From: a virus
Taxonomy: Duplodnaviria; Caudoviricetes
Length of the DNA stretch: 64,000 nucleotides
Reading direction: 5' to 3' (one strand)
Virus record (IMG/VR): IMGVR_UViG_3300025600_000019
Span: 7,366-71,365 of that record
In this document: positions 3,001 through 53,926 of the stretch, piece after piece
Numbering within the stretch: the stretch's first letter is position 1
Layout: each line of letters starts with the position of its first letter
Translations under genes and position numbers: made by a program
Notes under the pieces: model-generated
What the model saw: only the letters and a program-made list of their open reading frames with translations
Told to the model about the DNA's origin: nothing
Databases searched by the model: none

Positions 3001-5376
3001 CACGCCAATCAAATATCTGGGTTTACTCCCTCTGAGAGTACTTTAATAAATAGAGGTCCTGAAACTTCATTTTTTAAAGCAGCCCTTCCAGGTGAATGGT
3101 TTATCAAAATTGCAGCATATGACACATTTGGGGAAAGTGCTCTTTTATATTCTCCTGAATACTCAGTTAATGTTGCCACATTAGGTCCATTGGATACAGT
3201 CCCTCCAGATGACCCAACATGGAACACTGCTGAAACATCGTTGGAAACAGATGGAACAACTTCTAAAATTGCATTGTCATGGAATTTAATCGAACCAGAA
3301 GATTTTCTACAGTACAACATTCAGTATGACACAAGTGGATTATTTACTGCTTCTGAACAACGATCAACCCCTTTAAAATTTTATGAGCTTACTGGATTGG
3401 TTACAGGGCAAGAATACTATTTCCAGATCCAAGCAGTTGACAAGTATAATAATGTGAGTAATTGGGTTGTTTATGAAGGTCCTATTGTTGCTGCTATGGA
3501 TACAACGGCTCCCAGTCCAGTTGTAGGATTAGTTGCAACATCAGCGTTTAAATCGGTATTTTTAACATGGGATTCAAATACTGAATCTGACCTATTAGAA
3601 TACATTGTTGAAATTGCAAATAATGAGACATTTTCTCTTGGATTGATTTCATTCTCTGTAGGACTAAATAATAACTTTACGTATTCAGGTGTTCCCGGAC
3701 TTGCCTATTATGCAAGAGTAACGCCTAGAGACCGTTCTGGGAATGTTCCTAACACGGGAGGTCCAGCAGATGATGGTTGGTCTAATGTCGTGTACACAAT
3801 TCCAGGAACACTTCTTGCCACTGACATTGATAATTTCAGTATTGATGCCTCTCAGTTGTACACAAATGTCCCAGTAATTAAAGAGGCAGCGTCTTCTATT
3901 TGGGTGGCAAACACTCCAACTGGAGGTATTTCTTGGGCATCTCACACAGTTGTGTACAAAAGTAAAATATTCACAATTAATGCTGGGAGTACTACAGTGC
4001 TTTATGTTGCAGCTGATTTGTCAGGGGATAGTGGCACAATCTCATATTTTGGAGCAAATGTGGCACCATCTCAACAAGACTTTTTTGTGATGGCTAAAAA
4101 TACCTCGGGTGCTCTTGAAATTGTATGGCAAGCACAGGCCAACATGGTAATTGGTTCTGCTAACATTATGGAGTTGGCTGTAAATAGTGGCAAAATATCT
4201 GATCTTGCGGTTGATAAATTGGTATCAGCAAATATTAATGCCACTGAATACATTGGTGTAAATAATGGACAAATTAAACTTGGTTTAATTGGAACAGACG
4301 AAAATGGTATATTAGTTCAAGATCATGCGGGTTCAGATGTTTTTAGAGTAAATGATACAGGTGAAACAACTTTAAAGAATTTGAATGTTGATGGTACTAT
4401 TAGCGTTGGTGATGGAAGGATCAATCTTGAAGGAGGAACTTCCTCAATTGCTGTTCGTAATGCAGATGACACTCATAATACTGTTCTCCTTGGGAAATTA
4501 GCAACTGATATGTATGGCTTGCAAGTTAACCAAGTTGATGGCACCCAGGTATTTAGAGTGGATGAAGATGGGGCTGTTGTTCAAAATGCAACAGTTGGTA
4601 ATTTGCTCGTTGGACCAGAAGGGATTCTATGTGGTGCTCAAGGAGGGTTGAGTGCCTTTAAAGTGTGGGATGCTGGTGGTGGTTCCATGAATATTTTCCT
4701 TGGGAATGCTGCTGGGCAGTACTTGCATTGGAATGGGACATATTTAGACATCAATGCAAGTATCGCAATGTCATCAACTTCTACTATTTCATGGGCTCAA
4801 GTAACAGGAGGTGGAAAGCCTGCTGATAATGCCACAGTTGGTGCAACATGGGGTGTGAACGTCTCTGGAGCACCCACGGTGTACACGCAAGCTGAAATAA
4901 AATCTTTTGCCACAACAATTACGAATACCACGGTAACCACTGCTTTTGTAAACGCTTTGAATGTGACAGCAAATTCTGTGAACGCAAATTGGGTGTACGC
5001 GGGTTCAATAAATGCAAATAATATTACCGCAGGTACTTTAAGTGCTAATCGTATAGATGTTGGCAATATTAATGCGGGTTCCGTAAATGGGCTTAGAATG
5101 ATTACAGGAGTAGTAAATAGTGATGGTACCATAGCTTCCGGCCCGGGATTCACGGTATCAAAACTAGGAACAGGAGATTTCCAGATAACCTTCACCACTC
5201 CGTTTGCTGCTTTACCTGTTGTATTGGCTTCCATAACAGGTGCATCTATTACTATGCCCGCCGTCATATCTACTCAGGTTTTCAATACTTGGTTGGCAGA
5301 GATTCATATATATAGCAGTGTAAATGGTAGTACTTTAGACAATCCTTTCGGTTTTACAGCTATTGGACTTAAATAA
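1..5376 (+). CDS. Tail tip / host-specificity protein J-like (central fibre), 5'-truncated by the window edge
   Basis: Frame is open from base 1. J-like motifs PRSYGRCKLYGNAI, YSNNPAWVLCDIL, FNGTFDAETSVWDAAL and TIGDVIELQ. FN3-like repeats (DTVPPDDPTW, DTTAPSPVVGL..VFLTWD) are followed by a fibre-like region and a C-terminal beta domain. Confidence 0.88.
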   Translation, partial: ASAAVMVVGGILVNMALPMPKPSVPTIAGNDYDKSNTYSWAPQTLQQQGVSIPRSYGRCKLYGNAISGYLESDGDKQYLNALVSLGIGPFFDIPSSGMKINEQPIDNFRSSISVPQVRLGTLNQTPLSNFEDTRIEHALSQKITVANSPYIYEPSGTDYNGLEVEITFPQGLYEVDQSSGAFKTALVSLQVSFTNGVITKYVEWVSEETTSTTPGTYTGWSLGKWVSGMWNGGTWYEALAGPAEIRDPSTGQPWHNTGDWQSGYQWSYFENLTIQVIRDSRDVLNQSTISGASQKVMRKIWRIYGLEGSNWEVHIQRITPDNSSAYLYNDFFISAVREIYTIPFQYPRQVLVGIDALGTEILSGSLKFSAICDCLYVRVCASDGVTWSVQYSNNPAWVLCDILTRPVYSGDAASGFTVVRYDGMLPARIDVAKFIEWADWCNDLVPDGAGGTEKRMTFNGTFDAETSVWDAALQVCQVGFAMLVWNGINLTLAIDKASDPVHLFSVGNTCESSFSEVFLPLEDRAAEIEMDFINSENDYARDKLTIVNGNINTINSKVGLQVIGISKSSEAWRYASRRLAYNQYLVRTVSFKADIDAIACTIGDVIELQSDVPQWGSGGRIVSAQSTSIILDQDVTIVSGTSYAIMVRCNDDSLLERTVTNAPGVTNTITVSSPFSPIPEVYAVYAFGETDIEAKPFKVIQMQKVEDLKINITCVEYNESIYGLDDGTPVIPTRNYSVINPLPPVTNLVLHELLVYNIDGVLIDSLHISFDNPQSSTFKIAEIWIHDDQPWHKVAETLTGFYIYENHNLVAGSYISVAILTVNYAGEKMSLENAPTASLSITGTTVIVPNVSGFELFGQGNNNYFIGKDIKLRWNAITANPLLEASGPASPSTYPTWFKWYELQIYDGIVLIRTEYLKTETYNYDYEKNYVDTLGHPSREVTFVLYAVGTKGDVSVIPARLTAINIAPAVVSGVVLTSFIEAFTVNFQPLSELDVAGYLIHANQISGFTPSESTLINRGPETSFFKAALPGEWFIKIAAYDTFGESALLYSPEYSVNVATLGPLDTVPPDDPTWNTAETSLETDGTTSKIALSWNLIEPEDFLQYNIQYDTSGLFTASEQRSTPLKFYELTGLVTGQEYYFQIQAVDKYNNVSNWVVYEGPIVAAMDTTAPSPVVGLVATSAFKSVFLTWDSNTESDLLEYIVEIANNETFSLGLISFSVGLNNNFTYSGVPGLAYYARVTPRDRSGNVPNTGGPADDGWSNVVYTIPGTLLATDIDNFSIDASQLYTNVPVIKEAASSIWVANTPTGGISWASHTVVYKSKIFTINAGSTTVLYVAADLSGDSGTISYFGANVAPSQQDFFVMAKNTSGALEIVWQAQANMVIGSANIMELAVNSGKISDLAVDKLVSANINATEYIGVNNGQIKLGLIGTDENGILVQDHAGSDVFRVNDTGETTLKNLNVDGTISVGDGRINLEGGTSSIAVRNADDTHNTVLLGKLATDMYGLQVNQVDGTQVFRVDEDGAVVQNATVGNLLVGPEGILCGAQGGLSAFKVWDAGGGSMNIFLGNAAGQYLHWNGTYLDINASIAMSSTSTISWAQVTGGGKPADNATVGATWGVNVSGAPTVYTQAEIKSFATTITNTTVTTAFVNALNVTANSVNANWVYAGSINANNITAGTLSANRIDVGNINAGSVNGLRMITGVVNSDGTIASGPGFTVSKLGTGDFQITFTTPFAALPVVLASITGASITMPAVISTQVFNTWLAEIHIYSSVNGSTLDNPFGFTAIGLK

Positions 5377-39484: not shown

Positions 39485-40252
39485 ATGGATGATCTAACCA
39501 ATAAAGGTACTATAAGAAAGAGAGCACAAAAGGTATATTCCAAACCACCTGGTAAAACTGGACCACAAAAGAACATAAAGAAAGTAATTAAAGAAGCATC
39601 AAAGAAACATAATGGACCACCTAGGGTATATGATGCAAAGTACCATATCCCAATGGCATATCTATATTGCTCAGAACAAGGTGTGGATTACAATCAATTG
39701 GCAAAGCTCTTTTTAATATCTCCAGACTGTTTGCGTAATTGGATGAGAGACGACCAAAAACTATTCAGGTCCATTAGGATGGGGCTGGATTTGTACCTGT
39801 CGAACGGGTGTGAGACCACGTTGGCGAAGAAAGCAACAGGCTATACTTTCCCAGAACGAGAGTACCAGAATGTGACTTTATATGAGATAGAAGAAACCAC
39901 GGATACCATCACTGGTAAGACCACAGTAAAGAAAACTCCAGTTGGACAGGAGTTGCGATTGGTAAAAGAAACCTGGAAGCATGTACAGCCAGACTTTAAT
40001 TCACTCCAGATGATCTTAACCAACAGATGTCCAGAACGATGGTCGAATGTACAGCAACTCCAAATAAAAGGGCAGATCAATCATGTAATGTTGGAAGGTG
40101 GTGGAAGTGGGTTAGCACCAATTGACCCAACTAAGTTGACTGATGCTGAATTGGTACGACTTATTGAATTGACAGGAGGAACTGCACCACCTAGAATTGT
40201 TGAAGATGCTCCACAAATTGAGAACGCAGACTACACGGAGATAAAGAAATGA
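39485..40252 (+). CDS. terS: Terminase small subunit (HTH type)
   Basis: HTH YNQLAKLFLISPDCLRNWM, then ETTLAKKATGY..KHVQPD..MILTNRCPERW, a pattern typical of this TerS family. Confidence 0.72.
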   Translation: MDDLTNKGTIRKRAQKVYSKPPGKTGPQKNIKKVIKEASKKHNGPPRVYDAKYHIPMAYLYCSEQGVDYNQLAKLFLISPDCLRNWMRDDQKLFRSIRMGLDLYLSNGCETTLAKKATGYTFPEREYQNVTLYEIEETTDTITGKTTVKKTPVGQELRLVKETWKHVQPDFNSLQMILTNRCPERWSNVQQLQIKGQINHVMLEGGGSGLAPIDPTKLTDAELVRLIELTGGTAPPRIVEDAPQIENADYTEIKK

Positions 40253-40656
40253 GACACTTCCTACTTATGGTAATTGCTTCATTGGTGTTGGTTAGTACGT
40301 GTTTTGGTGAAGAAACCAACAAGAACGCATGGACGAAGATAGACACAGCTTTAGAAATTGCCACAATAGCAACTTTGGCAATGGACTGGAGTCAGACAAG
40401 AACGATTGCAAAGAATCCAGACCGTTACTACGAGACTAATCCTATTCTTGGAAAGCATCCTAATGTTGGTACAGTGGATTTGTACTTTGCTGCTTGCGCT
40501 GTTGGACATGCTGGTATTGCATATTTGTTACCACAATCTATAACAGTACTAAATCTGGAAGTACCTGTTCGCAAAGTTTGGCAGTTGACTTGGATTGGAT
40601 TGGAAGTAGGTGCAATAGCGAACAATGTGAAGGCTGGAATTAAATTTGATTTTTAA
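40249..40656 (+). CDS. Exported/membrane protein
   Basis: Signal peptide MRHFLLMVIASLVLVSTCFG, DWSQTR..YETNPILG motif, ends AGIKFDF. Confidence 0.6.
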   Translation: MRHFLLMVIASLVLVSTCFGEETNKNAWTKIDTALEIATIATLAMDWSQTRTIAKNPDRYYETNPILGKHPNVGTVDLYFAACAVGHAGIAYLLPQSITVLNLEVPVRKVWQLTWIGLEVGAIANNVKAGIKFDF

Positions 40657-41781: not shown

Positions 41782-42020
41782 CTAAAGACCACAGGGAGGA
41801 ACCATGCCTTGGTTGTGCTGGTGACAGATGCTATATTTACTATCAAGACATAATGAAGGAGTGGAGAGCTAACCCAAGATGGACAACAGTGGATATTATT
41901 GCTGCTGATCTGTTCCCAGATGAATTGCAGAGAGCGCACTTTTTGGCATTCATGGTGTTCTTTCAGATGCATGTAATTCCGTACGAGGAGCAAAAACGTG
42001 TTGAGAATGGGGAGGTGTAG
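41769..42020 (+). CDS. Conserved phage hypothetical protein
   Basis: Ends VIPYEEQKRVENGEV. Confidence 0.55.
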   Translation: MPFVTKDHREEPCLGCAGDRCYIYYQDIMKEWRANPRWTTVDIIAADLFPDELQRAHFLAFMVFFQMHVIPYEEQKRVENGEV

Positions 42021-42021
42021 T

Positions 42022-43634: not shown

Positions 43635-43981
43635 TGTGTTTGAGGACTTGGTTGTTCTGGTGTTCGCATTTCTAATTCTATATTCAGTTTTTGGGAGATG
43701 ATATGACAAGACATGAATGTGCTATACTGGCAATATATGGTAAGTGTAATAAATCAGAGGTGTGTAAGGACTGCAAGTTGAAGGAGCATTGATGTTTGTG
43801 TGTCAGTGCTTGTGGTATGCACTTAGGACTTATTGGAGGGAAGGGGGCTATATCTGCATGAGGAAAAACAACTTATGTCGTTGGATGCCCCATTTCCTTC
43901 ATCTGAACAAAGAAATGGATTGCATGTCACACATGACACTAAAAGATGGTAAGTGGGTTGTGTGTATACTGGGGAGAAAGA

Positions 43982-44272
43982 ATGTCCAGAAGTTATAAGC
44001 ATACACCAATACACAAGATGGCTCCTGAGCATGGAAAGATAGGAAAGCATTTTGCCAATCGTAGGGTCCGCAGATACAAGGGGGACCTTTCTTCGGGTAA
44101 AAGTTACCGTAAATTATATGATCCATGGGAGATACATGATTGGATTACATATGAAACTCTCAATGATGCTTTGGTACCTCGTAGGTTCAGTTTGTTTGGT
44201 ATGTCTGTTTTTCCCGCACGTACTATACAGGAAAAGATTAAACAGTGGAAGAAAGAAATGCTTTGGAAGTGA
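43982..44272 (+). CDS. Basic hypothetical protein
   Basis: MSRSYKHTP..ANRRVR..SYRKLYDPWEIHDW. Confidence 0.55.
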   Translation: MSRSYKHTPIHKMAPEHGKIGKHFANRRVRRYKGDLSSGKSYRKLYDPWEIHDWITYETLNDALVPRRFSLFGMSVFPARTIQEKIKQWKKEMLWK

Positions 44273-44345
44273 AAGGAAGCACCAATAAAATTCTACTTTG
44301 AGGAATATATTGAGAACAATTCCAAATAAAATAGCAGCAATAACA

Positions 44346-45890
44346 ATGCCAGCTTTACCTGACCCGAAGGATCAATTGAACTTTCCTCGTGTAGCAGGGT
44401 TAGCAGAAATGTGCCGCAGATCGTTTAAATTCTTTGTCCAGCAATTCTGGGATGAAGTGGTGGCAGAGCCATTGTTGTGGGCATGGCACATGGATGTATT
44501 TTGTGAAGAATTTGAGAAAGTGATACGGCGTGTTGTTGGTACTCCGGTATACGACTGTAATGGAGTATTGATACACCGCAAGAGAGAGAAGAAAGAATAT
44601 GACCTAGTTATTAACGTCCCTCCGGGTACCACAAAATCATTGATATTCACAGTCATGGGTCCAGTCTGGTGTTGGTTGCTGGACCCTACAATGCGGTTTA
44701 TTACGGGCTCATATAGTTCTGATTTGTCGGTGGAGCATTCTGATCTTGCTAGGGACTTGTTCAAGAGTCAGAGATTTCAATTGTATTTCCCAGGACTGCA
44801 TATACGTCAGGACAAGGATGTAAAGTCAAACTACCACAACAATAAAAAGGGCTCCAGGTTCACAACTAGTGTTGGTGGTACTGTAACCGGGATGCATGCT
44901 CATGTTATTATTATTGATGACCCATTAAATCCTAAGAAAGCTGCTAGTGAGATAGAATTGAGAAGTGCATCACAATGGATGGAACGTACTCTCTCAACAC
45001 GTAAAATTGATAAAGCGGTCACTCCAACTATTCTGGTAATGCAAAGACTGGACGAGAAAGACCCGTCTGGAATGATGTTGGAAAAAATGAAAGCTGGGAA
45101 GAAACAGATACGTCACATTTGTTTACCAGGAGAGATATTCCAAGGAGCAACAACAACGAAAGGGGAAAAGGTCATTCAGTTGGTGCAGCCCCCAGAACTT
45201 GCTGAGAAGTACGTTAATGGAATGCTTGACCCCCTTCGATTGAGTACAGAGACACTCCACGAATTAAATGCGGACCTTGGACAATATGGATATGCTGGTC
45301 AGATACAACAGCAACCAGCACCACCTGAGGGTGGTATGTTCAAAGTTGGCAAGATCGAAATAATAGATATGCCTCCCGTATGGAACATCAAGCAACAGAT
45401 ACGCTATTGGGATAAAGCAGGGACAGACAAGAAAGAGAATCCAGGGGCTTGTCACACAGCAGGAGTTAAAATTGCTTTATTAAGCAATGGCAAATATTGT
45501 ATAATAGATGTTGTTCGTGGCCAGTGGGGCACGGATGATCGAGAGGATAGAATAAAGTTAACTGCTCAGTTGGATGGCACAAATGTGTTTACATGGATAG
45601 AACAAGAACCTGGGAGCGGGGGGAAAGATTCAGCAAGAGGGACAATTAAAAACTTAGCAGGATACCCCATACATGCTGAAACAGCAACAGGGGATAAGGT
45701 AACGAGAGCAGACCCAATGTCAGTGCAGGTGAATTGGGGTAATTTTTGTATGGTAAGGGCACCGTGGAATCAGGACTACATAGATGAAATGGCAAATTTC
45801 CCATTTAGTAAGTGGAAAGACCAAATAGATGCAAGTTCAGGAGCATTTAATAAATTAGCGATACCAAAGAAAGTTGCAGGTACATGGTAA
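44346..45890 (+). CDS. terL: Terminase large subunit
   Basis: INVPPGTTKS Walker A, IIIDDPLNP Walker B, VMQRL, RYWDKAGT, IEQEPGSGG and DQIDASSGAF. Confidence 0.95.
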   Translation: MPALPDPKDQLNFPRVAGLAEMCRRSFKFFVQQFWDEVVAEPLLWAWHMDVFCEEFEKVIRRVVGTPVYDCNGVLIHRKREKKEYDLVINVPPGTTKSLIFTVMGPVWCWLLDPTMRFITGSYSSDLSVEHSDLARDLFKSQRFQLYFPGLHIRQDKDVKSNYHNNKKGSRFTTSVGGTVTGMHAHVIIIDDPLNPKKAASEIELRSASQWMERTLSTRKIDKAVTPTILVMQRLDEKDPSGMMLEKMKAGKKQIRHICLPGEIFQGATTTKGEKVIQLVQPPELAEKYVNGMLDPLRLSTETLHELNADLGQYGYAGQIQQQPAPPEGGMFKVGKIEIIDMPPVWNIKQQIRYWDKAGTDKKENPGACHTAGVKIALLSNGKYCIIDVVRGQWGTDDREDRIKLTAQLDGTNVFTWIEQEPGSGGKDSARGTIKNLAGYPIHAETATGDKVTRADPMSVQVNWGNFCMVRAPWNQDYIDEMANFPFSKWKDQIDASSGAFNKLAIPKKVAGTW

Positions 45891-45912: not shown

Positions 45913-46998
45913 ATGAAGCGATTGATGTTGATAACATTAGGAATTATATTTTCATGTGGGCTTTCAATTGCAGGAGGGTTTGGTTTAGGAAGTTCAGGAG
46001 GAAGTTCAGGTATAAAGAATGTATCTGTTGCTCCAGTTAATGATGGAGATTTACTTGGTTGGGATGGTATTACTGGTCAGAGAGTAAAGAACATTACAAT
46101 GCTTCCAGCAGGAACAACAGCAATTACACAAGATCAAGGAGATGATGGTACCAGAGTTGCTACAACAGCATATGCGGATGCTATTTTTAGCAATCTTTCG
46201 TCAACAGCATTTACAGGTAAGGTTTTAACCAATTATTCATCAGGTGTGGGAACAGTTTCAGCAAGTGACACTATATTGAGTGCTTTTGGCAAACTTAATG
46301 GTAATATTGAAGGTAAACAAGCATCATTAACAAATCCAGCAGTACTTGGAACAGCACAGACATGGACGCAAGCACAAACATTTTCGGATAGTGGTGTTAA
46401 ATTGAAAGGTAGTTCCACGGGATTTACCACGTTTTCAAGTGCAAACAATGGAGCAACAAATTACACATTAACAGTTCCAGCAGCTAATGTAGTAATTGCT
46501 GCAAATGATGGTTCCAATCTTGCAATTGCAAACCAGGCAACAGGTGATTTAGCGGTTGCGTCAAGTACTACGGCATATGGTAAAGTTGCTGCTGTTGCTG
46601 TTGGGCAGGTACTCACTTCCCAAGGAACTGGTGCTGCTCCAGCCTATTCAGCCAATCCGACAGTAAGTAACATAGATTGCCCAACAATAACAAGTGCTGC
46701 TCAAGGCGATGCCACATTAAATCTTGATGGTGTTGCATACTGTGATTACAATTATTCCAATGGAGCAAGTGCCGCAGCCTACACAACATCATTTACCAGC
46801 AAACCAGCTTCTGGACTTGTGAGATACATTACGTTATCCTTAGGTGGGGGGGCTGGTGTAGTTACAACTACATGGACAGGGGTGGCATGGATTGGTACTG
46901 CTGGTTCAACAACGACAACAACCAACAAAACATCCTCGTATGCATGTAAAGTTGGGAATGCAACGACATATTGCACTATCATTGCAGAAGCATATTAA
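45913..46998 (+). CDS. Signal-peptide protein with tail-fibre-like shaft motifs
   Basis: MKRLMLITLGIIFSCGLSIA leader. TQDQGDDGTRVATTAYAD and VGQVLTSQGTGAAP fibre motifs. Confidence 0.6.
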   Translation: MKRLMLITLGIIFSCGLSIAGGFGLGSSGGSSGIKNVSVAPVNDGDLLGWDGITGQRVKNITMLPAGTTAITQDQGDDGTRVATTAYADAIFSNLSSTAFTGKVLTNYSSGVGTVSASDTILSAFGKLNGNIEGKQASLTNPAVLGTAQTWTQAQTFSDSGVKLKGSSTGFTTFSSANNGATNYTLTVPAANVVIAANDGSNLAIANQATGDLAVASSTTAYGKVAAVAVGQVLTSQGTGAAPAYSANPTVSNIDCPTITSAAQGDATLNLDGVAYCDYNYSNGASAAAYTTSFTSKPASGLVRYITLSLGGGAGVVTTTWTGVAWIGTAGSTTTTTNKTSSYACKVGNATTYCTIIAEAY

Positions 46999-47019
46999 AA
47001 TAGGTAAAGGAGTTTATTT

Positions 47020-47358
47020 ATGAAGAGATTTATTGCAGCATTGTTTTTGGTATTAGTTGCATCAGTGTGTTTTGGCAGTACGATCAACTTGCAATGGGAT
47101 GATACCAATACAGGAACGATTGTTGGATATCATTTGTATCAGCAAGTTGGAACGGCAGCATATGTTTTAGTACAAACGATTCCAAAGGGCACTTTGAAAG
47201 CAACAGCAACTATTGATAATACGAAGTCCTACAATTTTGCTGTAACAGCGTATAACTCAACAGGACAAGAGAGTGCGTATTCCAATGTAGTGAACATTCC
47301 TGTGTTACCTGCTGCTCCAACTAACCTGCGGTCAATAATGATCATTGTTTCACCTTAA
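47020..47358 (+). CDS. Secreted single fibronectin type III domain protein
   Basis: MKRFIAALFLVLVASVCFG leader. LQWD..GYHLY..YNFAVTAYNSTGQESAYSN FN3 pattern. Confidence 0.8.
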   Translation: MKRFIAALFLVLVASVCFGSTINLQWDDTNTGTIVGYHLYQQVGTAAYVLVQTIPKGTLKATATIDNTKSYNFAVTAYNSTGQESAYSNVVNIPVLPAAPTNLRSIMIIVSP

Positions 47359-47368
47359 TGGAGGAGAT

Positions 47369-48928
47369 ATGAGATTAACTTGGTGCATTCCATTTTTAAT
47401 TGTTTTTGTGGCGCACACTTCGTATGCCACTGTTTCTGTTTTGTCAAAGATTGGAGAAACACTTTCTGCCAAGACATTAGCTCAGTGTGCTACAGATGCT
47501 AGTATGGTTGGTAAAACTATTGTAGTACGTTCACCGCAAACTGTTTCAACAGTAATTGCCTGGCCATCTGATCGAGAGTTGCGAGTGGAAAAAGGAGGCA
47601 CAATTACATTTACAGGTAGTGGGTCTCTTTCAGGGTATACACAGACTTATGGTGCTGGTGTACCCATCACATGGACCTTCAATGCTTCTACAGGCACAGA
47701 CTGTGTGGTATCGTTTGGTGATGGTGTTATATCATCCACCTGTGGGTGGACAACAACACAGGGTGCAACAGGTCAGAAATTGACAATGTTGGAGGGTTTA
47801 GGAAGTGGAACTAATTTTAGGAAGATTTCTGTTCCTGATACATTAACCGCTGATCTTGAATTGCGGTTGCCAAATACATTACCCGCTGGCAATCAGGCTT
47901 TGATATTTACAACTCCAACAGGAGGTGTGAGTACCGGGACGTGGCAAACAACATCTACTAATCCAATGACGAATGTTGGTGATATTATTTATGGTGGCAC
48001 AGCAGGTGTACCAACCCGTTTGGCTGACACAACAGCAGGAAGGCCATTGCTATCTGGTGGAGTAGATACAGCCCCTCTATGGGGTAGTTATGGAATTGGA
48101 ACGCTTGCTTCTTTAACTGCTGGCACAATGACTGATACCAAGTATTGTACTTATTCAGCTAGTGGTACTCAGATCATATGTGATTCAGAAGGAGGAGCTT
48201 CCGCGACGTGGCCCGCAACTGCTGGTATTCCAAATTATTCTGGTGCATCATCTTGGGAGACTTCATATACCACAAGTGGATCTGGTACTGAATTGGCCTT
48301 AACAGATTCTCCAATATTTACGGGTTCGATTACAACTCCTTCTATCACTACTAATGCGGTTGATGGGGATCACTATTTAGAAGTAACCAATACAAGTGCC
48401 CCAACGTATGCATCTCCAGTTAAAGGCCAGATGGCATATAATCAAGCAACTGATAAATTGGTGATTCACAATGGTTCTGATTGGACAACGTGGAACTTGG
48501 TTAAAAATACTGATGCTGTTTCTTTGTTAGGTGATGCCACAGGGACTAGTTTGGCTGTCACGGGTGATATTGATGGTTTAGCAAATGTTGTGAATACCTA
48601 TGCAACAACAAATGCAGTTGAGTCACCAGAGAAATTGTTTATTTACACATTTAATGTATACGCGACCAACAGTACTGCTGTTACATATACATTGCCTGTT
48701 TCTGCATTGGGAAAACAGCGTTGTTATCGTAATTATGTGGGCCGAACAGGATCAATTAGAATTAATACCTCAGCGTCAGGGCAATATATTGATGTCAATG
48801 GAGTAAATACAGCTTCTGGGGGTTATGTTACTTCTGGGGGTGCTTTGGGTGATGGTATTTGTTTCGTAGGTATGGATGCGTGGCAATGGGCTTCATATCC
48901 TACTTCTGGAACGTGGGCAATACATTAA
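47369..48928 (+). CDS. Signal-peptide protein, Thr/Gly/Ser-rich and fibre-like
   Basis: MRLTWCIPFLIVFVAHTSYA leader. GDIIYGGTAGVPTRLA and KGQMAYN..VIHNGSDW fibre motifs. Several Cys pairs. Confidence 0.6.
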   Translation: MRLTWCIPFLIVFVAHTSYATVSVLSKIGETLSAKTLAQCATDASMVGKTIVVRSPQTVSTVIAWPSDRELRVEKGGTITFTGSGSLSGYTQTYGAGVPITWTFNASTGTDCVVSFGDGVISSTCGWTTTQGATGQKLTMLEGLGSGTNFRKISVPDTLTADLELRLPNTLPAGNQALIFTTPTGGVSTGTWQTTSTNPMTNVGDIIYGGTAGVPTRLADTTAGRPLLSGGVDTAPLWGSYGIGTLASLTAGTMTDTKYCTYSASGTQIICDSEGGASATWPATAGIPNYSGASSWETSYTTSGSGTELALTDSPIFTGSITTPSITTNAVDGDHYLEVTNTSAPTYASPVKGQMAYNQATDKLVIHNGSDWTTWNLVKNTDAVSLLGDATGTSLAVTGDIDGLANVVNTYATTNAVESPEKLFIYTFNVYATNSTAVTYTLPVSALGKQRCYRNYVGRTGSIRINTSASGQYIDVNGVNTASGGYVTSGGALGDGICFVGMDAWQWASYPTSGTWAIH

Positions 48929-48945
48929 TAAATAGTGAGGTGATT

Positions 48946-49623
48946 ATGAAAAGATTTTTAATTTCTGTATTCTTGGTATTGTTGGTTGCTTCTACGGCTT
49001 GTGCCTGGGGACCCATGGTAATGTTTTCACATAGGACAATGACATACTTGATCAATGAAGGGTTTGAATCTGGGACAGAGCCCACTGGGTGGACACATGG
49101 TGCACCCAATAACTACGGGTATAGTGCTGCTCCTTTAGATGGAACATACTCTCTTCAAACAGGTTCTTATGGAGGCGCAGCAACCCCCGCTGTAGTAGGT
49201 GACACTCTTTATGTTACAGCACATTTTAAGATTGGTACTTTTTCTGATGGAACTGTGCAAACCTTGGCAATATATGGTAGTAGTAATACTATTGTTGCTC
49301 AATTGGTGGTAGGTCCTACAGGTAAGGTTGGCGCTGTTGCTACTGGAGGCACACTAGTTTATTCTGCTGATGGGGTAGTTGCACTAAATACCCCAGTTTA
49401 TTTAAAAATGATGTATACAAAAGGAACTGGTGCAAATGCAACAGCAACTGTTTGGACTTCATCGAATGGAACAACTTGGACACAGAGAGCAACTAGCACT
49501 AATGGAACGAGCACAGGCCAGTCCAAGTGGATTGCATTAGGTACAGGAGCAGTAAACATACTCTATTGGGACACAGTTAAAGCATCGTATTCAAACATTA
49601 CAGATGCAAGGAGTGGTTTCTAA
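48946..49623 (+). CDS. Secreted beta-sandwich (lectin/ConA-like) protein
   Basis: MKRFLISVFLVLLVASTACA leader, EGFESG start, beta-rich, LYWDTV ending. Confidence 0.55.
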   Translation: MKRFLISVFLVLLVASTACAWGPMVMFSHRTMTYLINEGFESGTEPTGWTHGAPNNYGYSAAPLDGTYSLQTGSYGGAATPAVVGDTLYVTAHFKIGTFSDGTVQTLAIYGSSNTIVAQLVVGPTGKVGAVATGGTLVYSADGVVALNTPVYLKMMYTKGTGANATATVWTSSNGTTWTQRATSTNGTSTGQSKWIALGTGAVNILYWDTVKASYSNITDARSGF

Positions 49624-51836
49624 TGAAATTTTTATTGAAAGTGATCTTATTTTTCGTTCTGATTCCCTCTTTAGCATTTGCATGGACTAAAACAGCAACA
49701 TTTGAAAGTGGTACAATAGGTAACATAGCAAATAGTACAAGTGGTTTTGATTATGCTGGAACGGCTACAAAATACTCTTCTGATAAAAGCGCAGGTGGTT
49801 CAAAGTCTGCGAAGATGTCGTGGACAACTGGTAATGAAGGGTGGAATCTAACTCATGGTGAAATTACTTACCCTCAAAACGTATCAAATGGACAGGAAAT
49901 CTGGGCGAGAGGGTACTACTATCTTGTTTCCCCTTGGAGTTGGGCAAATGCATCTGGAGCTTCTGAGTTTATCAAAATATTGCGGATTGGTACCACGCAT
50001 GGTTTTCATTCCTTTATTGCCAATGGTTCTGGTCACATTATTGCATCTAATGAACCAGCGGGATTTGGCCCTATTACAAGTGCTACTCTTGATATAAACG
50101 CATGGAACTGCCTTGAAATATATGTCAAGTTATCCACAACCGATCCTATTTATAGGATGTGGAAAAACGGTGTCTTGATATATGAAGACAGATCCCATGT
50201 TACTTTACTTAACTCTGGTGATGTTGCAATACGTTCTATTATCATGTCTACTTGGAATGGTGGTGTCAGCCAGAATCAAACGGAGTACGTAGATGATTTT
50301 GTAATTACCACGGATACTCCTGCTGGAAGGGATGCCACAGGGCATCCTATGATTGGAACTTTAGGAAGTACTTCGGTAGATATCACTGCTCCAGTTGTTA
50401 CTGCATTTACAGTACCTGCTACAGCAAGCAATCTAACCGTACCAATCAACACATTTGCTGCAACAGACAATGTTGGAGTAACTAATTATTGTGTTACATC
50501 TACTAACAGTTCCTCTGGTTGTACGTGGTTAAGTTCACCAAATACTTTTTTTACGTTTGGAAGTTATGGCATTTATACAGTCTATGCTTGGGCTAAAGAT
50601 GCTGCTGGAAATATAAGTACATCAGTTTCTGATTCAGTGGATATTACGGAACCAGTCACAACTCCGGGGACATTGTTTACTGAGAGTTTTGAGGACACTT
50701 CGTATGCAGCACGTGGTTGGTATGACACAACTCCACAAGGAACTATTGTAACGGGTGGTCGAAGTGGGAACGCCATGCAATGGTATTGGCCAGCTGGAGC
50801 AACACTTCCAACAAATGGTGGTGCAATGAGAAAATTGTTTACACCTACAGAGACATTATACATTTCTTATTATACTAAGTTCCAAACAGGTTGGCGTGGT
50901 TCTGGGGTTTCTTATCATCCACATATGATCAATATTTTATCAGATTTAGATGGTGATTGGGCAGGGCCATCAAATACGTATTTGAATGTTTATTATGAAA
51001 TGCTTTCGGATACCATAAGTCCTTATGCAGTTCACCCAACATCTTTTATTCAGGACAACATGGTAGTTAATACATCTTATGGTACTCCTCCGAAAGATCT
51101 AACTGCTATAACTGAAAATAGGAGTGTCGGTAGATGCAATTCACCCTTAGCTCCAGGTGCTTCTGTTGGTGATTGTTATAATGCACCACCTTGGTATAGT
51201 ACTCAGGGATGGTATACTCCAGATACTTCTGTTTCATTAAATGCGTGGCATAAAGTTGAGTTGTACTACCAAATGAATACAGTTGTTAGTGGGATAGGAC
51301 AAGCTGATGGTATTATGCGTGTGTGGATTGATGGGGTACAGGCGCAAAATCGAACTGATTTGACTTATAGAACGGGACAGAATCCAACGAAGAAATTTCA
51401 CCAATTTGTTTTCGGACCTTATATTGGTGTTGGTTCACCAATTGCACAATCAATGTGGATTGATGAATTAACGGTTGCAACAGCAGTGCCGGGAAGTGCA
51501 GATATTACCGCTCCTGTTGTTACTGCATTTACAGTACCTACTACTTCTACAAGTTTGACCGTAGCAGTTAGTGGTTTTACTGCCACTGATGCTGTTGGAG
51601 TGACTAATTATTGTGTGACCCCAACTAATTCAAGTGCTAATTGTGATTGGTTAAGTTCTCCAAATACTTTTTTTACGTTTGCCAACAATGGAACAGGCAC
51701 GTATATGGCATACGCATGGGCTAAGGATGCTGCAGGTAATATATCTTCTAGTGTGTCGGATTCCGTAGACATTACATTAGATGTTATTATTCCTCCAAGA
51801 TTAAGTGTGATTTCGGGATCGTTTACATTCAAGTAA
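49623..51836 (+). CDS. Secreted protein with two ConA/polysaccharide-lyase-like domains, each followed by an Ig-like module
   Basis: MKFLLKVILFFVLIPSLAFA leader. TFESG/ESFED domain starts, AWNCLEIYVK/AWHKVELYY, YVDDFVI/WIDELTV. Duplicated DITAPVV..AWAKDAAGNIS module. Confidence 0.65.
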   Translation: MKFLLKVILFFVLIPSLAFAWTKTATFESGTIGNIANSTSGFDYAGTATKYSSDKSAGGSKSAKMSWTTGNEGWNLTHGEITYPQNVSNGQEIWARGYYYLVSPWSWANASGASEFIKILRIGTTHGFHSFIANGSGHIIASNEPAGFGPITSATLDINAWNCLEIYVKLSTTDPIYRMWKNGVLIYEDRSHVTLLNSGDVAIRSIIMSTWNGGVSQNQTEYVDDFVITTDTPAGRDATGHPMIGTLGSTSVDITAPVVTAFTVPATASNLTVPINTFAATDNVGVTNYCVTSTNSSSGCTWLSSPNTFFTFGSYGIYTVYAWAKDAAGNISTSVSDSVDITEPVTTPGTLFTESFEDTSYAARGWYDTTPQGTIVTGGRSGNAMQWYWPAGATLPTNGGAMRKLFTPTETLYISYYTKFQTGWRGSGVSYHPHMINILSDLDGDWAGPSNTYLNVYYEMLSDTISPYAVHPTSFIQDNMVVNTSYGTPPKDLTAITENRSVGRCNSPLAPGASVGDCYNAPPWYSTQGWYTPDTSVSLNAWHKVELYYQMNTVVSGIGQADGIMRVWIDGVQAQNRTDLTYRTGQNPTKKFHQFVFGPYIGVGSPIAQSMWIDELTVATAVPGSADITAPVVTAFTVPTTSTSLTVAVSGFTATDAVGVTNYCVTPTNSSANCDWLSSPNTFFTFANNGTGTYMAYAWAKDAAGNISSSVSDSVDITLDVIIPPRLSVISGSFTFK
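50379..50648 (+). repeat. Ig-like module, copy 1
   Basis: 90 codons, closely similar at DNA and protein level to 51501-51776. Confidence 0.9.
51501..51776 (+). repeat. Ig-like module, copy 2
   Basis: 92 codons, closely similar to 50379-50648. Confidence 0.9.
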
Positions 51837-51890
51837 CGATTTGTTAAACTGTAACAAATGAATCAAGTTCGGTTTGGAGGAAAGTTCAAA

Positions 51891-52469
51891 ATGATCCCAG
51901 TTGTGAGTTTTTATACTGAGAATACACCGTATGAAACAGAAGCGTTTGAAATGAAGGAATCTGCCCATGCCGTTGGATTGTTGGATGTTAATCTATTCAA
52001 AGTGCAATCCAGCGGTTCGTGGGCACGTAATTGTCAGCAAAAAGTAGAAATATTGATTGAGGCTTGTGAGGTAATAAAAGAACCTTTTTTATATGTTGAT
52101 GCGGATGCAAGATTTGTTTGCCCTCCATATCTTATGAGAGGAACTTTGTTGTCCTGCTATGATCTTGCAGTACATTATTTTAAACAGACTGAGTTGTTGA
52201 GTGGTACAATTTGGGTGAATCCAACAGTACATACGAGAACACTCTTAGACATGTGGCAGGAAGCGTGTTACAAAGCACCTGGTATATGGGACCAGAAAGC
52301 ACTCTCTGACGTACTTTCAAAGTACCCTGCTGTTGATGTATTTAAACTCCCTCCTGAGTATACCTGGATATTTGATTTGTCTCCAAAATTCTATGGTTTC
52401 AATTTGGAACCAGTGATTGTTCATTATCAAGCAAGTCGAAAATATAAAAATGTAATTGGGAGGGCTTAA
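51891..52469 (+). CDS. GT-A fold nucleotide-diphospho-sugar transferase
   Basis: FLYVDADA (DxD), LLSGTIW, WDQKAL, LPPEY and IVHYQASR. Confidence 0.75.
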   Translation: MIPVVSFYTENTPYETEAFEMKESAHAVGLLDVNLFKVQSSGSWARNCQQKVEILIEACEVIKEPFLYVDADARFVCPPYLMRGTLLSCYDLAVHYFKQTELLSGTIWVNPTVHTRTLLDMWQEACYKAPGIWDQKALSDVLSKYPAVDVFKLPPEYTWIFDLSPKFYGFNLEPVIVHYQASRKYKNVIGRA

Positions 52470-53926
52470 TGTCTGAGAATGAAGAAGGAAAACCAGAATC
52501 AATGGTAGGAGCGTTGCGCGTATTAACTGAACTTACACAACGTAATATTTATGCCCGAATGCTTGGTAAAAGTTTTGATGATAAACGGGATATATATGCA
52601 GCATTGGGGTACAAGAAAGATTTGGAGTTCGCAGATTATTGGAATGTTTTTAAACGTGGTCGTTTAGGGAAACGTATCATTAACGCTCCTGTTGAATCTA
52701 CTTGGCGTGGTGATGTTGAAATTTATGAGGATGAAGAGGAGAAAGACACTCCATTTGAAATTGCTTGGGATGCGTTGGTAAAGAAGCATCACATATTTTC
52801 AAAATTTAAACGATTGGATACTTTAGTTGGCATTGCTGATTTTGCTTTGCTGCTTTTAGGGTTTAGTGATAACAAGAAATTGGGGGAGCCTCTTGTACCA
52901 ATGAATGGTATGCAGTTGATCTATGTACAACCATATTCTTTTGGTAGTATTCAAGTGGTGCAATGGGAAGATGATGAAACGAATCCTCGTTATGGACTTC
53001 CCGTAATGTATACTATTGCAATGACTACGGTTGGATCTATTTCTGGTTCCACAACGCCGTCTGGCTCATTAGGAAAGGTTGTTCGGGTACATCACTCAAG
53101 AGTAATCCATGTTGCTGATGGTTTACTTGATAATGATGTTATTGGTACTCCAAGGTTAGAAAGTGTATTCAATGGTTTGCAGGACCTTGAAAAAGTGGCT
53201 GGTGGTTCTGCCGAAATGTTCTGGCAAGGTGGGTTAGGGGGTAAAGCTTTCTCCAGTAAAGAGGGGGCTACAATTGACGCACAAAGCAAAGAGGATATGA
53301 CAGAACAAATTGATGATTATGTGCATGGTTTGCGTAGATATCTTCGATTGCAGAATATGGATGTAAATGATCTATCTCCACAAGTTACAGATCCTAGTCA
53401 AGCAATTTCAGCACAATTGGATTTAATTTCAGGTGATACAGGAATCCCAAAAAGGATCTTGATTGGTTCCGAACGTGGTGAACTTGCATCGACTCAGGAT
53501 GAAAGCAATTGGTTGAATCGAATTAAAGAACGTCGAACACAATATGCGGAGCCGTGTATTCTTCGTCCAGTAATTGATTTGTTGCTTTTGGTGGGAGTTC
53601 TCCCTCCATTACAGAACGATGACTACCATATTGAATGGCCTGATTTGTGGTCCTCTTCTGAACAAGAACAGGCATTGGTATCTAAAACTATGACAGAAGC
53701 ATTGGCAGCATACATGAATGCCCCTGGTGCAGATCAAGTTGTCCCTGTTGATTTCTTCCTTGAGGAAGTGCTGAAATTTTCACCAGAGCAAATTGATCGA
53801 ATTAAAGAAATTCTAGGAGTTGGTGCTGAGGAGAGTATTGAAATTGAACCTCCTGAACCACCACCAGTTGTAGTTGCACCAACACAAATAACTGCCCCAG
53901 TCAAAAAAGAGGAGATTAAAAAATGA
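52469..53926 (+). CDS. Portal protein (DUF1073 type)
   Basis: RIINAPVESTWR, HHSRVIH, GTPRLESVFN and TGIPKRILIGSERGELASTQD. Confidence 0.88.
   Translation: MSENEEGKPESMVGALRVLTELTQRNIYARMLGKSFDDKRDIYAALGYKKDLEFADYWNVFKRGRLGKRIINAPVESTWRGDVEIYEDEEEKDTPFEIAWDALVKKHHIFSKFKRLDTLVGIADFALLLLGFSDNKKLGEPLVPMNGMQLIYVQPYSFGSIQVVQWEDDETNPRYGLPVMYTIAMTTVGSISGSTTPSGSLGKVVRVHHSRVIHVADGLLDNDVIGTPRLESVFNGLQDLEKVAGGSAEMFWQGGLGGKAFSSKEGATIDAQSKEDMTEQIDDYVHGLRRYLRLQNMDVNDLSPQVTDPSQAISAQLDLISGDTGIPKRILIGSERGELASTQDESNWLNRIKERRTQYAEPCILRPVIDLLLLVGVLPPLQNDDYHIEWPDLWSSSEQEQALVSKTMTEALAAYMNAPGADQVVPVDFFLEEVLKFSPEQIDRIKEILGVGAEESIEIEPPEPPPVVVAPTQITAPVKKEEIKK

What the first reader, a model, noticed from the sequence alone, without database searches (positions are those of the whole stretch)
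45913..51836. Island of five consecutive Sec-exported fibre/lectin/FN3 proteins inserted between terL and portal
Seen: about 5.9 kb separates terL from the portal region. All five ORFs begin with classic signal peptides (basic n-region, hydrophobic core, small-residue cleavage site such as SIA, CFG, SYA, ACA, AFA). Two carry tail-fibre shaft motifs, one is a lone FN3, and two have ConA/lyase-like sandwiches. Several have closely spaced Cys pairs suited to periplasmic disulfide formation. Two more leader-bearing genes occur at 40249 and 62630. Established: tailed virions assemble in the cytoplasm, so structural fibres normally lack signal peptides. Inference: an undescribed extracytoplasmic module. 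Possible roles are appendages matured in the periplasm and added to virions at lysis, surface adhesins or receptor masks remodelling the infected cell, or secreted glycan-degrading helpers.
Basis: partly seen in the sequence, partly recalled or inferred. Interest (0 to 1): 0.8.

Follow-up and report, generated by a model that had tools for sequence, protein, structure and literature searches.

The report
Exported fibre-and-lyase cassette in phage
An uncultured lambda-like phage carries, between its DNA-packaging and portal genes, five tightly packed late genes for fibre-like and sugar-cutting proteins that all start with bacterial export signals, so the phage seems to send a sugar-targeting tool kit into the cell envelope rather than build it into the particle in the cytoplasm.

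Summary
The window is most of a 71-kb, about 96% complete viral genome. terL (44298-45890) and portal (52469-53926) are separated by five same-strand genes. Each starts, 5-9 nt after a GGAGG-type ribosome site, with a K/R-then-hydrophobic-then-small-residue leader of about 20 aa. A sixth gene is a leaderless glycosyltransferase-like gene.

A run of five among about 110 genes is unlikely by chance (p about 2e-5 to 5e-3). The leaders are conserved as a feature: 75-81% of homologues of g1, g3 and g5 have one.

- g5 has two jelly-roll, lyase-like domains. The C-terminal one passes Pfam PF14099, and its best fold matches are PL14/PL20/PL36 lyases (Z 14-15.5).
- Its closest relatives (50-59% identity) are exported proteins inside exosortase-type exopolysaccharide gene clusters of Desulfuromonadales/Geobacter-like bacteria.
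- g1 and g3 are fibre-like, with conserved Cys-paired C-terminal domains found mostly in viral or uncultured sequence.

Similar runs of exported fibre, small partner and lyase occur in at least five unrelated viral contigs. Earlier notes of this scan report the same on other DNA.

Best reading (about 0.4): late-made, exported glycan-binding and glycan-cutting helpers. Virion attachment at lysis is not excluded (about 0.2). No description was found in the literature searched.

The parts
44298..45890 (+). Large terminase (left boundary of the island)
   Evidence: PHROG 38 at E 1.2e-78. 38-40% identical to terL of Croceibacter and Cellulophaga phages.
45913..46998 (+). g1: exported fibre-like protein, 361 aa. 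Leader is residues 1-20, followed by a Gly/Ser linker, shaft motifs, and a conserved C-terminal all-beta domain (about 255-361) ending AEAY with invariant Cys345/Cys354.
   Evidence: GGAGGT lies 7 nt before the ATG. 672 relatives found. 81% of representatives carrying the C-domain have leaders. Alignment A4. AF2 model: only the C-domain is ordered, all beta. No Pfam or PHROG hit.
47020..47358 (+). g2: exported lone FN3-like protein, 112 aa (leader is residues 1-19)
   Evidence: fn3 at E 4e-4, below the cut-off. 29-37% identical to the leader+FN3 start of large secreted Ig/DUF4082 proteins in bacterial EPS clusters. A positional and compositional counterpart lies in viral contig L002 at 17799-18137; BLASTP found no match to it.
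47369..48928 (+). g3: exported fibre-like protein, 519 aa (leader is residues 1-20). Conserved C-terminal domain (about 390-519), family consensus ending GTWxxH (AIH in g3), with invariant Cys452/Cys498.
   Evidence: Homologues share only the C-domain, and 12 of 15 have leaders. 63% identity to the end of a 1343-aa leader-bearing protein in viral contig L004. Atlas neighbours are mostly viral, but scores under 0.9 make this a lead only.
48946..49623 (+). g4: exported ConA/PL14-like jelly-roll protein, 225 aa (leader is residues 1-20)
   Evidence: The Atlas holds a model with pTM 0.79. Nearest clusters are 85-100% viral. Structural neighbour is a PL14-domain cluster, TM 0.76. All 3 sequence relatives show a hydrophobic N-terminus by eye; 2 of the 3 pass my leader scan.
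49623..51836 (+). g5: exported two-domain lyase-like protein, 737 aa. Leader 1-20; jelly-roll domain about 21-245; Ig-like repeat 254-345; lyase-like domain 349-622; Ig-like repeat 628-721.
   Evidence: PF14099 at 7.7e-10 (39.4 bits against cut-off 29.9) and PF21294 at 1.6e-6. Start overlaps the g4 stop by 1 nt. 413 relatives, 75% with leaders.
50667..51488 (+). g5 C-terminal polysaccharide-lyase-like jelly roll (residues 349-622)
   Evidence: VIA-align best matches: 3a0n PL14 vAL-1 Z 15.5 (219 aligned); 6kcv Aly36B Z 14.2; 5gmt PL14 Z 14.2; 2zzj glucuronan lyase Z 14.1. Generic lectins and GH16 follow at Z 10-13. The model is low confidence (pLDDT 47). 54-59% identical to 315-aa exported proteins in bacterial EPS clusters.
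50382..50657 (+). g5 Ig-like repeat 1 (Cys290/Cys300)
   Evidence: Internal repeat: 63 of 92 residues identical to repeat 2. About 50% identical to Ig-like repeats of Geobacter/Desulfuromonadaceae secreted proteins.
51504..51785 (+). g5 Ig-like repeat 2 (Cys664/Cys674)
   Evidence: weak Y_Y_Y/Big_13 hits
51858..52469 (+). g6: leaderless nucleotide-sugar transferase-like gene (neighbour, not exported); stop overlaps the portal start
   Evidence: PF03407 at E 7.7e-5, 23.2 bits against cut-off 22
52469..53926 (+). Portal (right boundary)
   Evidence: PF06381 at 1.9e-36; PHROG 146 at 3.5e-59
40249..40656 (+). Separate leader-bearing 135-aa gene just after a terS-like gene. It ends in an alternating aromatic ...KFDF tail typical of outer-membrane beta-barrel proteins.
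   Evidence: Translation; leader scan; terS-like 39485-40252 matches PHROG 309 at 1e-13; no Pfam hit

Best explanation
The island is a late-operon accessory cassette of Sec-exported proteins that bind and cut glycans. It is not part of the cytoplasmic virion assembly line. It is transcribed together with terL and portal.

Proposed mechanism (inferred):
1. The five products are threaded through Sec into the periplasm of a diderm host, probably a Desulfuromonadales/Geobacter-like bacterium.
2. Their leaders are cut and the conserved Cys pairs can oxidise.
3. g5 is a fusion of two jelly-roll, lyase-type domains that bacteria encode as separate exported proteins inside exosortase-type exopolysaccharide (EPS) clusters. 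It, and probably the PL14/ConA-like g4, cleaves the host's own uronic-acid-type EPS.
4. The trimer-like fibres g1 and g3, with the small beta proteins g2 and g4 as partners, supply glycan binding.
5. The proteins act in the envelope late in infection, and in the surroundings once lysis frees them. They clear the polysaccharide that would trap progeny and strip neighbouring cells.

Shown here: gene order, coupling, leaders, their conservation, the lyase family and fold, and the EPS-cluster origin. Inferred: actual export, the substrate, the timing, and the benefit to the phage.
For: - All five genes have SD-preceded leader ATGs, gaps of -1 to 22 nt, no excess of promoter-like or terminator-like sites, and GC3 like the other late genes.
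- A run of five is non-random.
- Leaders persist across families although their sequences differ: g5 hits 82/110, g3 hits 12/15, g1 C-domain hits 35/43 against 39% for shaft-only hits.
- Invariant Cys pairs: g1 345/354, g3 452/498, g5 505/518.
- g5 passes the PF14099 cut-off, and its fold is nearest to PL14/PL36/PL20 lyases at Z 14-15.5.
- Both g5 domains occur as adjacent exported proteins inside clusters with EpsH exosortase, Wzy_C, GT1, GT2 and AsnB in Desulfuromonadaceae, Geobacter-like and deltaproteobacterial genomes. A g2-like leader+FN3 protein sits a few kb (about 3-9) downstream in five of them.
- The tail module is complete and lambda-like, with a 1909-aa J protein (PHROG 31, 2e-138), so adsorption does not need these fibres.
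- g1 and g3 have no recognisable virion-docking N-terminal domain.
- Analogous cassettes of fibre, small partner and lyase-like protein, all with leaders, lie at different places in other viral contigs. L021 includes a PL42-type PcRGLX domain, upstream of terL. L022 lies after the tail fibres, L023 upstream of terS/terL, and L002 and L004 also carry such runs. This is moron-like mobility rather than a fixed structural slot.
- Precedent for single elements: 5% of prophage CAZymes carry signal peptides (PMC13507307).
Against: - No SignalP or experimental evidence of export.
- Sec alone leaves proteins in the periplasm of a diderm, so any action on surface EPS needs lysis or another secretion step.
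- Catalytic residues of g5 were not mapped, and many jelly-roll domains are lectins rather than enzymes.
- The role of trimeric fibre-like proteins in a purely enzymatic helper model is not explained.
- The phage has no other side fibres, so g1 and g3 could still be virion appendages.
- Close homologues of some g1-family proteins exist without a leader but with the same mature N-terminus (P0172 against P0198/P0228). Export is therefore not obligatory for the fold.
- The host is inferred only from protein similarity. No related prophage was found in 301 genomes of that class.
Confidence: 0.42

Rival explanations
1. Periplasm-matured virion appendages. g1 and g3 (with g2 and g4 as adaptors or chaperones, and g5 as a depolymerase) fold and form disulfides in the periplasm. 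They dock onto finished particles only when holin lesions or lysis mix the compartments. The phage thereby gains oxidised side fibres and a depolymerase.
For: - The genes sit in the structural late operon and are coupled to portal.
- g1 and g3 are built from phage fibre modules, and their nearest clusters are viral.
- The tail module has J but no side-fibre genes.
- In L002, L022 and L027, leader-bearing fibres lie directly within or after tail genes.
- Conserved Cys pairs would benefit from an oxidising compartment.
That is an unchecked AI note.
Against: - I found no precedent in the literature searched.
- No docking domain was recognised in g1 or g3.
- In these families the C-termini are conserved and the N-terminal parts vary. 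This is the reverse of virion-anchored fibres.
- Cassette position varies between phages.
- g5 and g2 are taken from bacterial EPS loci, where they have no virion to join.
Confidence: 0.22
2. Receptor masking or superinfection exclusion. Exported fibres and lectin-like proteins bind, and g5 trims, the polysaccharide receptor on the infected cell. Other phages and the phage's own progeny are then not lost on infected cells and debris. This would be the functional analogue of T5 Llp or Cor lipoproteins.
For: The products are exported and glycan-directed. Exported receptor-blocking proteins encoded beside structural genes are established in T5 and lambdoid phages (my own knowledge).
Against: The block appears to be co-transcribed with late genes, which is late for exclusion. 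Soluble periplasmic proteins cannot reach the outer surface without another step. Lipobox-like Cys in g1 and g4 are not conserved in their families.
Confidence: 0.12
3. Host-benefit cargo (lysogenic conversion). The products are adhesins or EPS-remodelling proteins expressed from a prophage.
For: g5 and g2 derive from bacterial EPS loci. Bacteria own exported phage-fibre-like adhesins: Bdellovibrio MAT (PMC10769870) and WceF (PMC7949094).
Against: No own promoter or terminator above chance. The genes are translationally coupled inside the late operon. The genome encodes its own DNA polymerase, helicases and UvsX-like recombinase, and no integrase was seen among the ORFs tested.
Confidence: 0.06
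4. The hydrophobic N-termini are not working export signals, and the proteins are ordinary cytoplasmic virion fibres or decoration proteins.
For: No predictor or experiment was available. Some family members lack leaders.
Against: - There are five canonical n-h-c leaders in a row.
- 75-81% of each family conserves the feature despite sequence drift.
- Bacterial homologues in EPS clusters carry the same leaders.
Confidence: 0.05

Closest known systems
Polysaccharide lyases of the beta-jelly-roll type (Pfam PF14099/PF21294; PL14 vAL-1 of Chlorella virus 3a0n, PL20 glucuronan lyase 2zzj, PL36 Aly36B 6kcv)
   Same: The g5 C-domain passes the PF14099 cut-off, and its model aligns best to these lyases (Z 14-15.5, about 210-220 residues). 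g4 has a PL14-like structural neighbour.
   Different: Sequence identity is only 11-15%. Catalytic residues are not mapped. g5 is a two-domain fusion with Ig-like repeats and a Sec leader, inside a phage late operon.
Exported glycan-modifying enzymes encoded inside bacterial EPS loci (Pantoea stewartii WceF, PMC7949094; AlgL-type periplasmic lyases, from my own knowledge)
   Same: The nearest relatives of g5 (54-59% identity) are exported proteins embedded in exosortase-type EPS biosynthesis clusters. This is the same genomic logic as WceF and AlgL.
   Different: WceF has a Tat signal and a tailspike beta-helix, whereas g5 has a Sec-type leader and a jelly roll. Here the gene has moved into a phage.
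Bdellovibrio bacteriovorus MAT (mosaic adhesive trimer) fibres (PMC10769870)
   Same: Phage-tail-fibre-like proteins that begin with a signal peptide and work outside the cytoplasm.
   Different: MATs are cell-owned. [quoted passage not shown]
Free (non-virion) phage depolymerases and signal-peptide-bearing prophage CAZymes (PMC13507307: 5% of 64,678)
   Same: A phage-encoded carbohydrate-active protein that acts outside the particle, and a minority of these carry signal peptides.
   Different: Those are single genes treated as auxiliary metabolic genes. Here a coupled run of five exported genes includes two fibres, wedged between terL and portal.
Lambdoid morons and receptor-blocking lipoproteins (lambda Lom and Bor, T5 Llp, Cor; from my own knowledge)
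   Same: Exported phage proteins encoded within or next to structural modules.
   Different: Morons have their own promoter and terminator and are small outer-membrane proteins or lipoproteins. This block has neither signal above chance and encodes large fibre and lyase proteins.

Membership tests
Sec-type (SPI) signal peptides | Positively charged n-region, uncharged hydrophobic h-region of about 7-15 aa or more, c-region with small residues at -3/-1, all at the true N-terminus | tested here: met
   My own scan and a reading of the five N-termini. SD sites fix the starts. SignalP was not available, so the cleavage sites are read by eye.
Sec-type (SPI) signal peptides | Actual translocation and cleavage | not testable with these tools
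   Needs PhoA/BlaM fusions or N-terminal proteomics.
Lipoprotein (SPII) signal peptides | A lipobox [LVI][ASTVI][GAS]C that is conserved in the family | tested here: not met
   g1 (IFSC, Cys15) and g4 (STAC, Cys19) fit only the loose PROSITE-style pattern. Most relatives lack the Cys.
Pfam Polysacc_lyase (PF14099) / PL14-like | Score above the curated gathering cut-off | tested here: met
   g5: 39.4 bits against 29.9. PF21294: 28.4 against 27.
Pfam Polysacc_lyase (PF14099) / PL14-like | Beta-jelly-roll fold closest to characterised lyases | tested here: met
   3a0n Z 15.5, 6kcv 14.2, 5gmt 14.2, 2zzj 14.1, above generic lectins at 10-13. The model is low confidence.
Pfam Polysacc_lyase (PF14099) / PL14-like | Catalytic base/acid residues and lyase activity | not tested
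   No sequence hit to solved lyases for residue mapping. Needs an enzyme assay.
Virion tail fibre / side fibre | N-terminal virion-docking domain; gene in the tail module; presence in particles | tested here: inconclusive
   No Pfam or PHROG hit for g1 or g3. The genes lie outside the tail module. Particle content cannot be tested here.
Moron (lambda lom/bor type) | Own promoter and terminator flanking the insert | tested here: not met
   23 promoter-like sites against 29.6 expected, and 6 terminator-like sites against 7.1 expected. None frames the block, and gaps are at most 22 nt.
Bdellovibrio MAT fibres | Conserved beta-rich domain of about 130 aa right after the leader; often a C-terminal S74 chaperone | tested here: not met
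   A Gly/Ser linker and variable shafts follow the leaders in the g1 family. No S74 hit. The feature is as stated in PMC10769870.
Fibronectin type III (g2) | Pfam fn3 above the cut-off | tested here: inconclusive
   20.9 bits against 25. g2 aligns to the FN3 start of bacterial proteins that score 36-41 bits.

The most novel reading that the evidence does not exclude
Some tailed phages mature a set of outer appendages (fibres, small adaptors, a depolymerase) in the periplasm. There the proteins gain disulfides, and they dock onto cytoplasm-built particles only at lysis. This would be a second, extracytoplasmic branch of virion assembly, and the recurrent leader-bearing cassettes next to terL/portal or the tail genes would be its signature.
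Probability: 0.2. Interest if true: 0.9.

Novelty: new variant of a known kind. Interest (0 to 1): 0.66.

Why it matters
Phage depolymerases and fibres are assumed to be made in the cytoplasm and carried on the particle. A coupled late-gene set that is instead exported, and that recurs in unrelated uncultured phages, points to something else: a phage activity in the cell envelope or in the lysate, such as clearing exopolysaccharide, freeing progeny or preparing neighbouring cells.

The less likely alternative is an unknown route of virion completion. Either way, the finding matters for:
- annotation, because such genes are routinely called 'tail fibre';
- host prediction, because g5 links this phage to bacteria with exosortase-type EPS loci;
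- the search for stable, disulfide-bonded EPS-degrading enzymes active against biofilms of metal-reducing and sulfur-cycling bacteria.

Tried and rejected
- tblastn of g1, g3 and g5 against 50,697 cultured phage records gave no match.
- Single-protein scans of IMG/VR with portal and g5 found no relatives. Only alignment-based scans worked.
The contexts of P0024, P0052, P0077 and of leaderless variants such as P0172 could not be looked up directly.
- The g1 C-domain was not found in the species-representative genomes with the patterns used, nor in five genomes carrying g5-like EPS clusters.
- No related prophage was found via portal in 301 genomes of the candidate host class, so the host stays inferred.
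- AF2 models of g1 (pLDDT 41) and g5 (pLDDT 47) were poor. Only the g5 C-domain gave a usable fold comparison, and I did not search with the g1 model.
- PDB sequence searches gave nothing useful.
- I tested whether the small proteins downstream of each fibre (g4 and its positional counterparts in L004 and L021-L028) are one family. Only marginal matches appeared (E 1e-3 to 1e-4), probably leader-driven, so the 'conserved fibre-partner pair' is positional only.
- Contigs L013 and L020 from a Parcubacteria bin looked like possible phage relatives. They are chromosomal: rpoB/rpoC and a clamp-loader homologue.
- A lipoprotein reading of g1 and g4 was rejected because the Cys is not conserved.
- Island proteins have no paralogues elsewhere in the genome.

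Full report
**Context.** The window is bases 7366-71365 of a 71,365-bp IMG/VR virus record estimated 96% complete. The particle genes are those of a lambda-like siphovirus:
- neck proteins, major tail protein, tail chaperone and a 987-aa tape measure;
- M/L/K/I-like minor tail proteins;
- a 1909-aa central fibre J (PHROG 31, 2.4e-138);
- a head module of portal, MuF, protease and capsid interleaved with glycosyltransferase-like genes (note e1-5981490).

The replication arm encodes a DNA polymerase, two helicases, a UvsX-like recombinase and exonucleases. No integrase was seen among the ORFs tested.

**The observation.** terL (44298-45890) and portal (52469-53926) are firmly identified. Six + strand genes lie between them. 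The first five each start at an ATG that sits 5-9 nt after a GGAGG-type ribosome-binding site. Each opens with 1-2 Lys/Arg, a 12-17-residue uncharged hydrophobic core, and a small-residue motif near residue 19-20.

Gaps between genes are 22, 21, 10, 17, -1, 21 and -1 nt. Promoter-like and terminator-like sites are not enriched (23 against 29.6 expected; 6 against 7.1) and none frames the block. GC and GC3 match the neighbouring late genes. With 7-17 leader-like genes among about 110, a run of five has p between 2e-5 and 5e-3 by permutation. The sixth gene (51858-52469) is a leaderless nucleotide-sugar transferase-like protein whose stop overlaps the portal start.

In Cellulophaga phage phi17:1, whose terL is 40% identical, terL is followed by portal after 39 nt. 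MuF, a glycosyltransferase, protease and capsid come next. The 5.9-kb block is therefore an insertion relative to the canonical order. The terS-like gene (39485-40252) is also separated from terL by about 4 kb of small genes.

**What the five proteins are.**

*g5 (737 aa).* It passes the Pfam gathering cut-off for Polysacc_lyase PF14099 and for PL14. It has two Ig-like repeats that are 68% identical to each other, each with a close Cys pair. Its 413 detected relatives are secreted multi-domain proteins, where named from Geobacter, Desulfuromonadaceae and other deltaproteobacterial MAGs. Of these, 82 of 110 have leaders by my scan, and all eight that I read have them.

An AF2 model was poor overall (pLDDT 47). 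Even so, its residues 349-622 align best to beta-jelly-roll polysaccharide lyases, ahead of generic lectins and GH16 enzymes at Z 10-13:

| Chain | Enzyme | Z |
|---|---|---|
| 3a0n | PL14 vAL-1 (Chlorella virus) | 15.5 |
| 6kcv | PL36 Aly36B | 14.2 |
| 5gmt | PL14 (Aplysia) | 14.2 |
| 2zzj | PL20 glucuronan lyase | 14.1 |

*g4 (225 aa).* It has a confident Atlas model. Its neighbours are mostly viral proteins of similar size, plus a PL14-domain cluster at TM 0.76.

*g2 (112 aa).* It is a lone FN3-like domain.

*g1 (361 aa) and g3 (519 aa).* Neither has a Pfam or PHROG hit, but both are built like fibres. They have Gly/Ser linkers, repeated shaft motifs shared with many phage fibres, and a strongly conserved all-beta C-terminal domain with an invariant Cys pair. 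These are g1 255-361 ending AEAY, and g3 390-519, family consensus ending GTWxxH.

**Where the parts come from.** Scanning species-representative genomes with the g5 family gave 14 loci. They come from Desulfobulbales, Desulfuromonadaceae, Geobacter, Geomesophilobacter sediminis, Syntrophorhabdus and others.

In L010, L012, L014 and L015, the two jelly-roll domains of g5 occur as two adjacent, separately exported proteins of about 270-430 and 315 aa. These sit in the middle of polysaccharide-biosynthesis gene clusters. In L015, Pfam confirmed EpsH exosortase (1.2e-54), a Wzy_C polymerase/ligase, GT1 and GT2 glycosyltransferases and an AsnB-type amidotransferase.

In five of these loci, a protein that starts with a g2-like leader plus FN3 lies a few kb (about 3-9) downstream. 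Where the whole protein lies within the locus (L010, L016), Big_7 repeats and two DUF4082 domains follow the FN3. So g5 and g2 are host-EPS-locus parts captured and fused by the phage.

In contrast, the g1 C-domain was not found in the representative genomes but was found in viral contigs. The g3 C-domain was found in a viral contig and in four bacterial MAG loci, including a prophage-like Acidobacteria region.

**The leaders are a conserved property.** Among 50%-identity cluster representatives that carry the g1 C-domain, 35 of 43 full-length proteins have a leader, against 39 of 99 for shaft-only hits. In addition, 37 of 45 have exactly two Cys in the last 30 residues. For g3, 12 of 15 have a leader. 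The leader sequences differ freely while the feature is kept. This argues for selection on export.

A few close relatives have the same mature N-terminus without a leader (P0172 against P0198/P0228). The fold itself therefore does not require export.

**The cassette recurs.**

| Contig | Leader-bearing run | Position |
|---|---|---|
| L021 | g1-type fibre (566 aa), 236-aa protein, 854-aa protein with a PcRGLX (PL42-type) domain | directly upstream of a PHROG-38 terL |
| L022 (90 kb) | 218/189/494 aa | right after a J-like protein and a leaderless fibre |
| L023 | 281/248/484 aa | upstream of terS/terL |
| L002 | lipoprotein, then a g5 homologue (51% identity); further downstream a 724-aa protein and a 112-aa small protein that resembles g2 only in size and layout | after tape measure and distal tail genes |
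| L004 | four in a row, including a 1343-aa protein with the g3 C-domain | ahead of a peptidase and holin-like genes |
| L027 (Acidobacteria, prophage-like) | three in a row | after portal, capsid and tail genes |

Earlier notes of this scan describe the same kind of run between terminase and portal in other phages: e1-3439268, e1-3482303, e1-3426301, e1-3280647 and e1-1079523. These are unchecked AI notes. They share no close sequence with this window. They do agree with what I found independently in L002-L027.

**Mechanism.** The most economical reading is an exported accessory cassette. It is made late with the structural proteins and passed through Sec. It is oxidised in the periplasm of a diderm host. 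The diderm inference rests on the phage's own 135-aa leader protein, which ends in an outer-membrane-type ...KFDF tail (40249-40656). The cassette is directed at the host's own EPS.

In this reading, g5 (and perhaps g4) would cut a uronic-acid-type polymer, as AlgL and WceF do for their cognate EPS (PMC7949094). g1 and g3 would supply multivalent binding. After lysis the proteins are free in the lysate, where disulfide-stabilised enzymes and lectins could clear matrix around progeny and neighbouring cells. I put this at about 0.42.

The main rival, at about 0.22, is that the same proteins dock onto particles once lysis mixes the compartments. Three points speak for it: the fibre architecture, the lack of side-fibre genes in the tail module, and the position of several cassettes among tail genes. 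Four points speak against it:
- no docking domain was found;
- the conservation pattern is inverted (conserved tips, variable N-parts);
- the cassette position varies between phages;
- g5 and g2 originate in EPS loci.

Receptor masking (0.12), lysogenic-conversion cargo (0.06) and non-functional leaders (0.05) are less likely, for the reasons given under rivals.

**Comparison with what is known.** Each element has a precedent:
- jelly-roll polysaccharide lyases;
- exported EPS-locus enzymes;
- Bdellovibrio MAT fibres, in which a conserved domain 'immediately follow[s] the signal peptide' (PMC10769870);
- prophage CAZymes, of which 5% have signal peptides (PMC13507307);
- lambdoid morons.

The block is not a member of the MAT family, since it has no conserved post-leader domain and no S74. 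It is not a moron in the strict sense, since it has no promoter or terminator of its own. I found no paper describing coupled runs of exported fibre and lyase genes in phage late operons. Absence from this library is not proof of absence.

**Verdict.** The feature is real and non-random. It is a new variant of known kinds (phage accessory depolymerase or exported cargo). A minority reading, extracytoplasmic completion of virions, would be categorically new.

**Limits.** There was no SignalP, no multimer modelling and no expression data. The structure models were poor. The host is inferred only by similarity.

Noticed in passing
window 39485-44298: The packaging module is interrupted twice. A terS-like gene (39485-40252, PHROG 309 at 1e-13) is separated from terL by about 4 kb. 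That stretch holds a leader-bearing 135-aa protein with an outer-membrane-type C-terminus (...KFDF), a zinc-knuckle protein and a metallophosphoesterase/exonuclease-like gene (42657-43634).
   Followed up: partly
It lies among the connector genes just downstream of the capsid gene and has no Pfam hit. It may be a membrane-anchored or mis-started protein rather than a Sec substrate.
   Followed up: partly
L010, L012, L014, L015, L016 (bacterial loci): Exosortase-type EPS clusters of Desulfuromonadales/Geobacter-like bacteria consistently hold a pair of exported jelly-roll (PL14/PF14099-like) proteins. They also hold a large exported FN3-Big_7-DUF4082 protein. This looks like an uncharacterised polymer-processing set of these loci.
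   Followed up: partly
L026 8720-11944; L028 8936-11003: Outside phages, a g3-type fibre with a leader is followed by a leader-bearing protein of 200-270 aa. In an Acidobacteriaceae MAG the pair lies next to an exosortase and UDP-glucose dehydrogenase. In a Marinamargulisbacteria MAG it lies among housekeeping genes. Cell-owned versions of the fibre-partner pair may therefore exist.
   Followed up: no
proteins P0140, P0201, P0202, P0216, P0244 (g1 shaft-only hits): Many metagenomic proteins place a Sec-type leader directly in front of the canonical tail-fibre N-terminal motif (...LSAG.ALTGTEL.P..Q...). Exported copies of otherwise complete phage-type fibres seem widespread.
   Followed up: no
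window -353..5376 (genome 7012-12741): The J-like central fibre is 1909 aa. Its first 1000 or so residues match lambda J. The remaining 900 or so match FN3-rich minor tail proteins and probably carry the real receptor-binding part.
   Followed up: no
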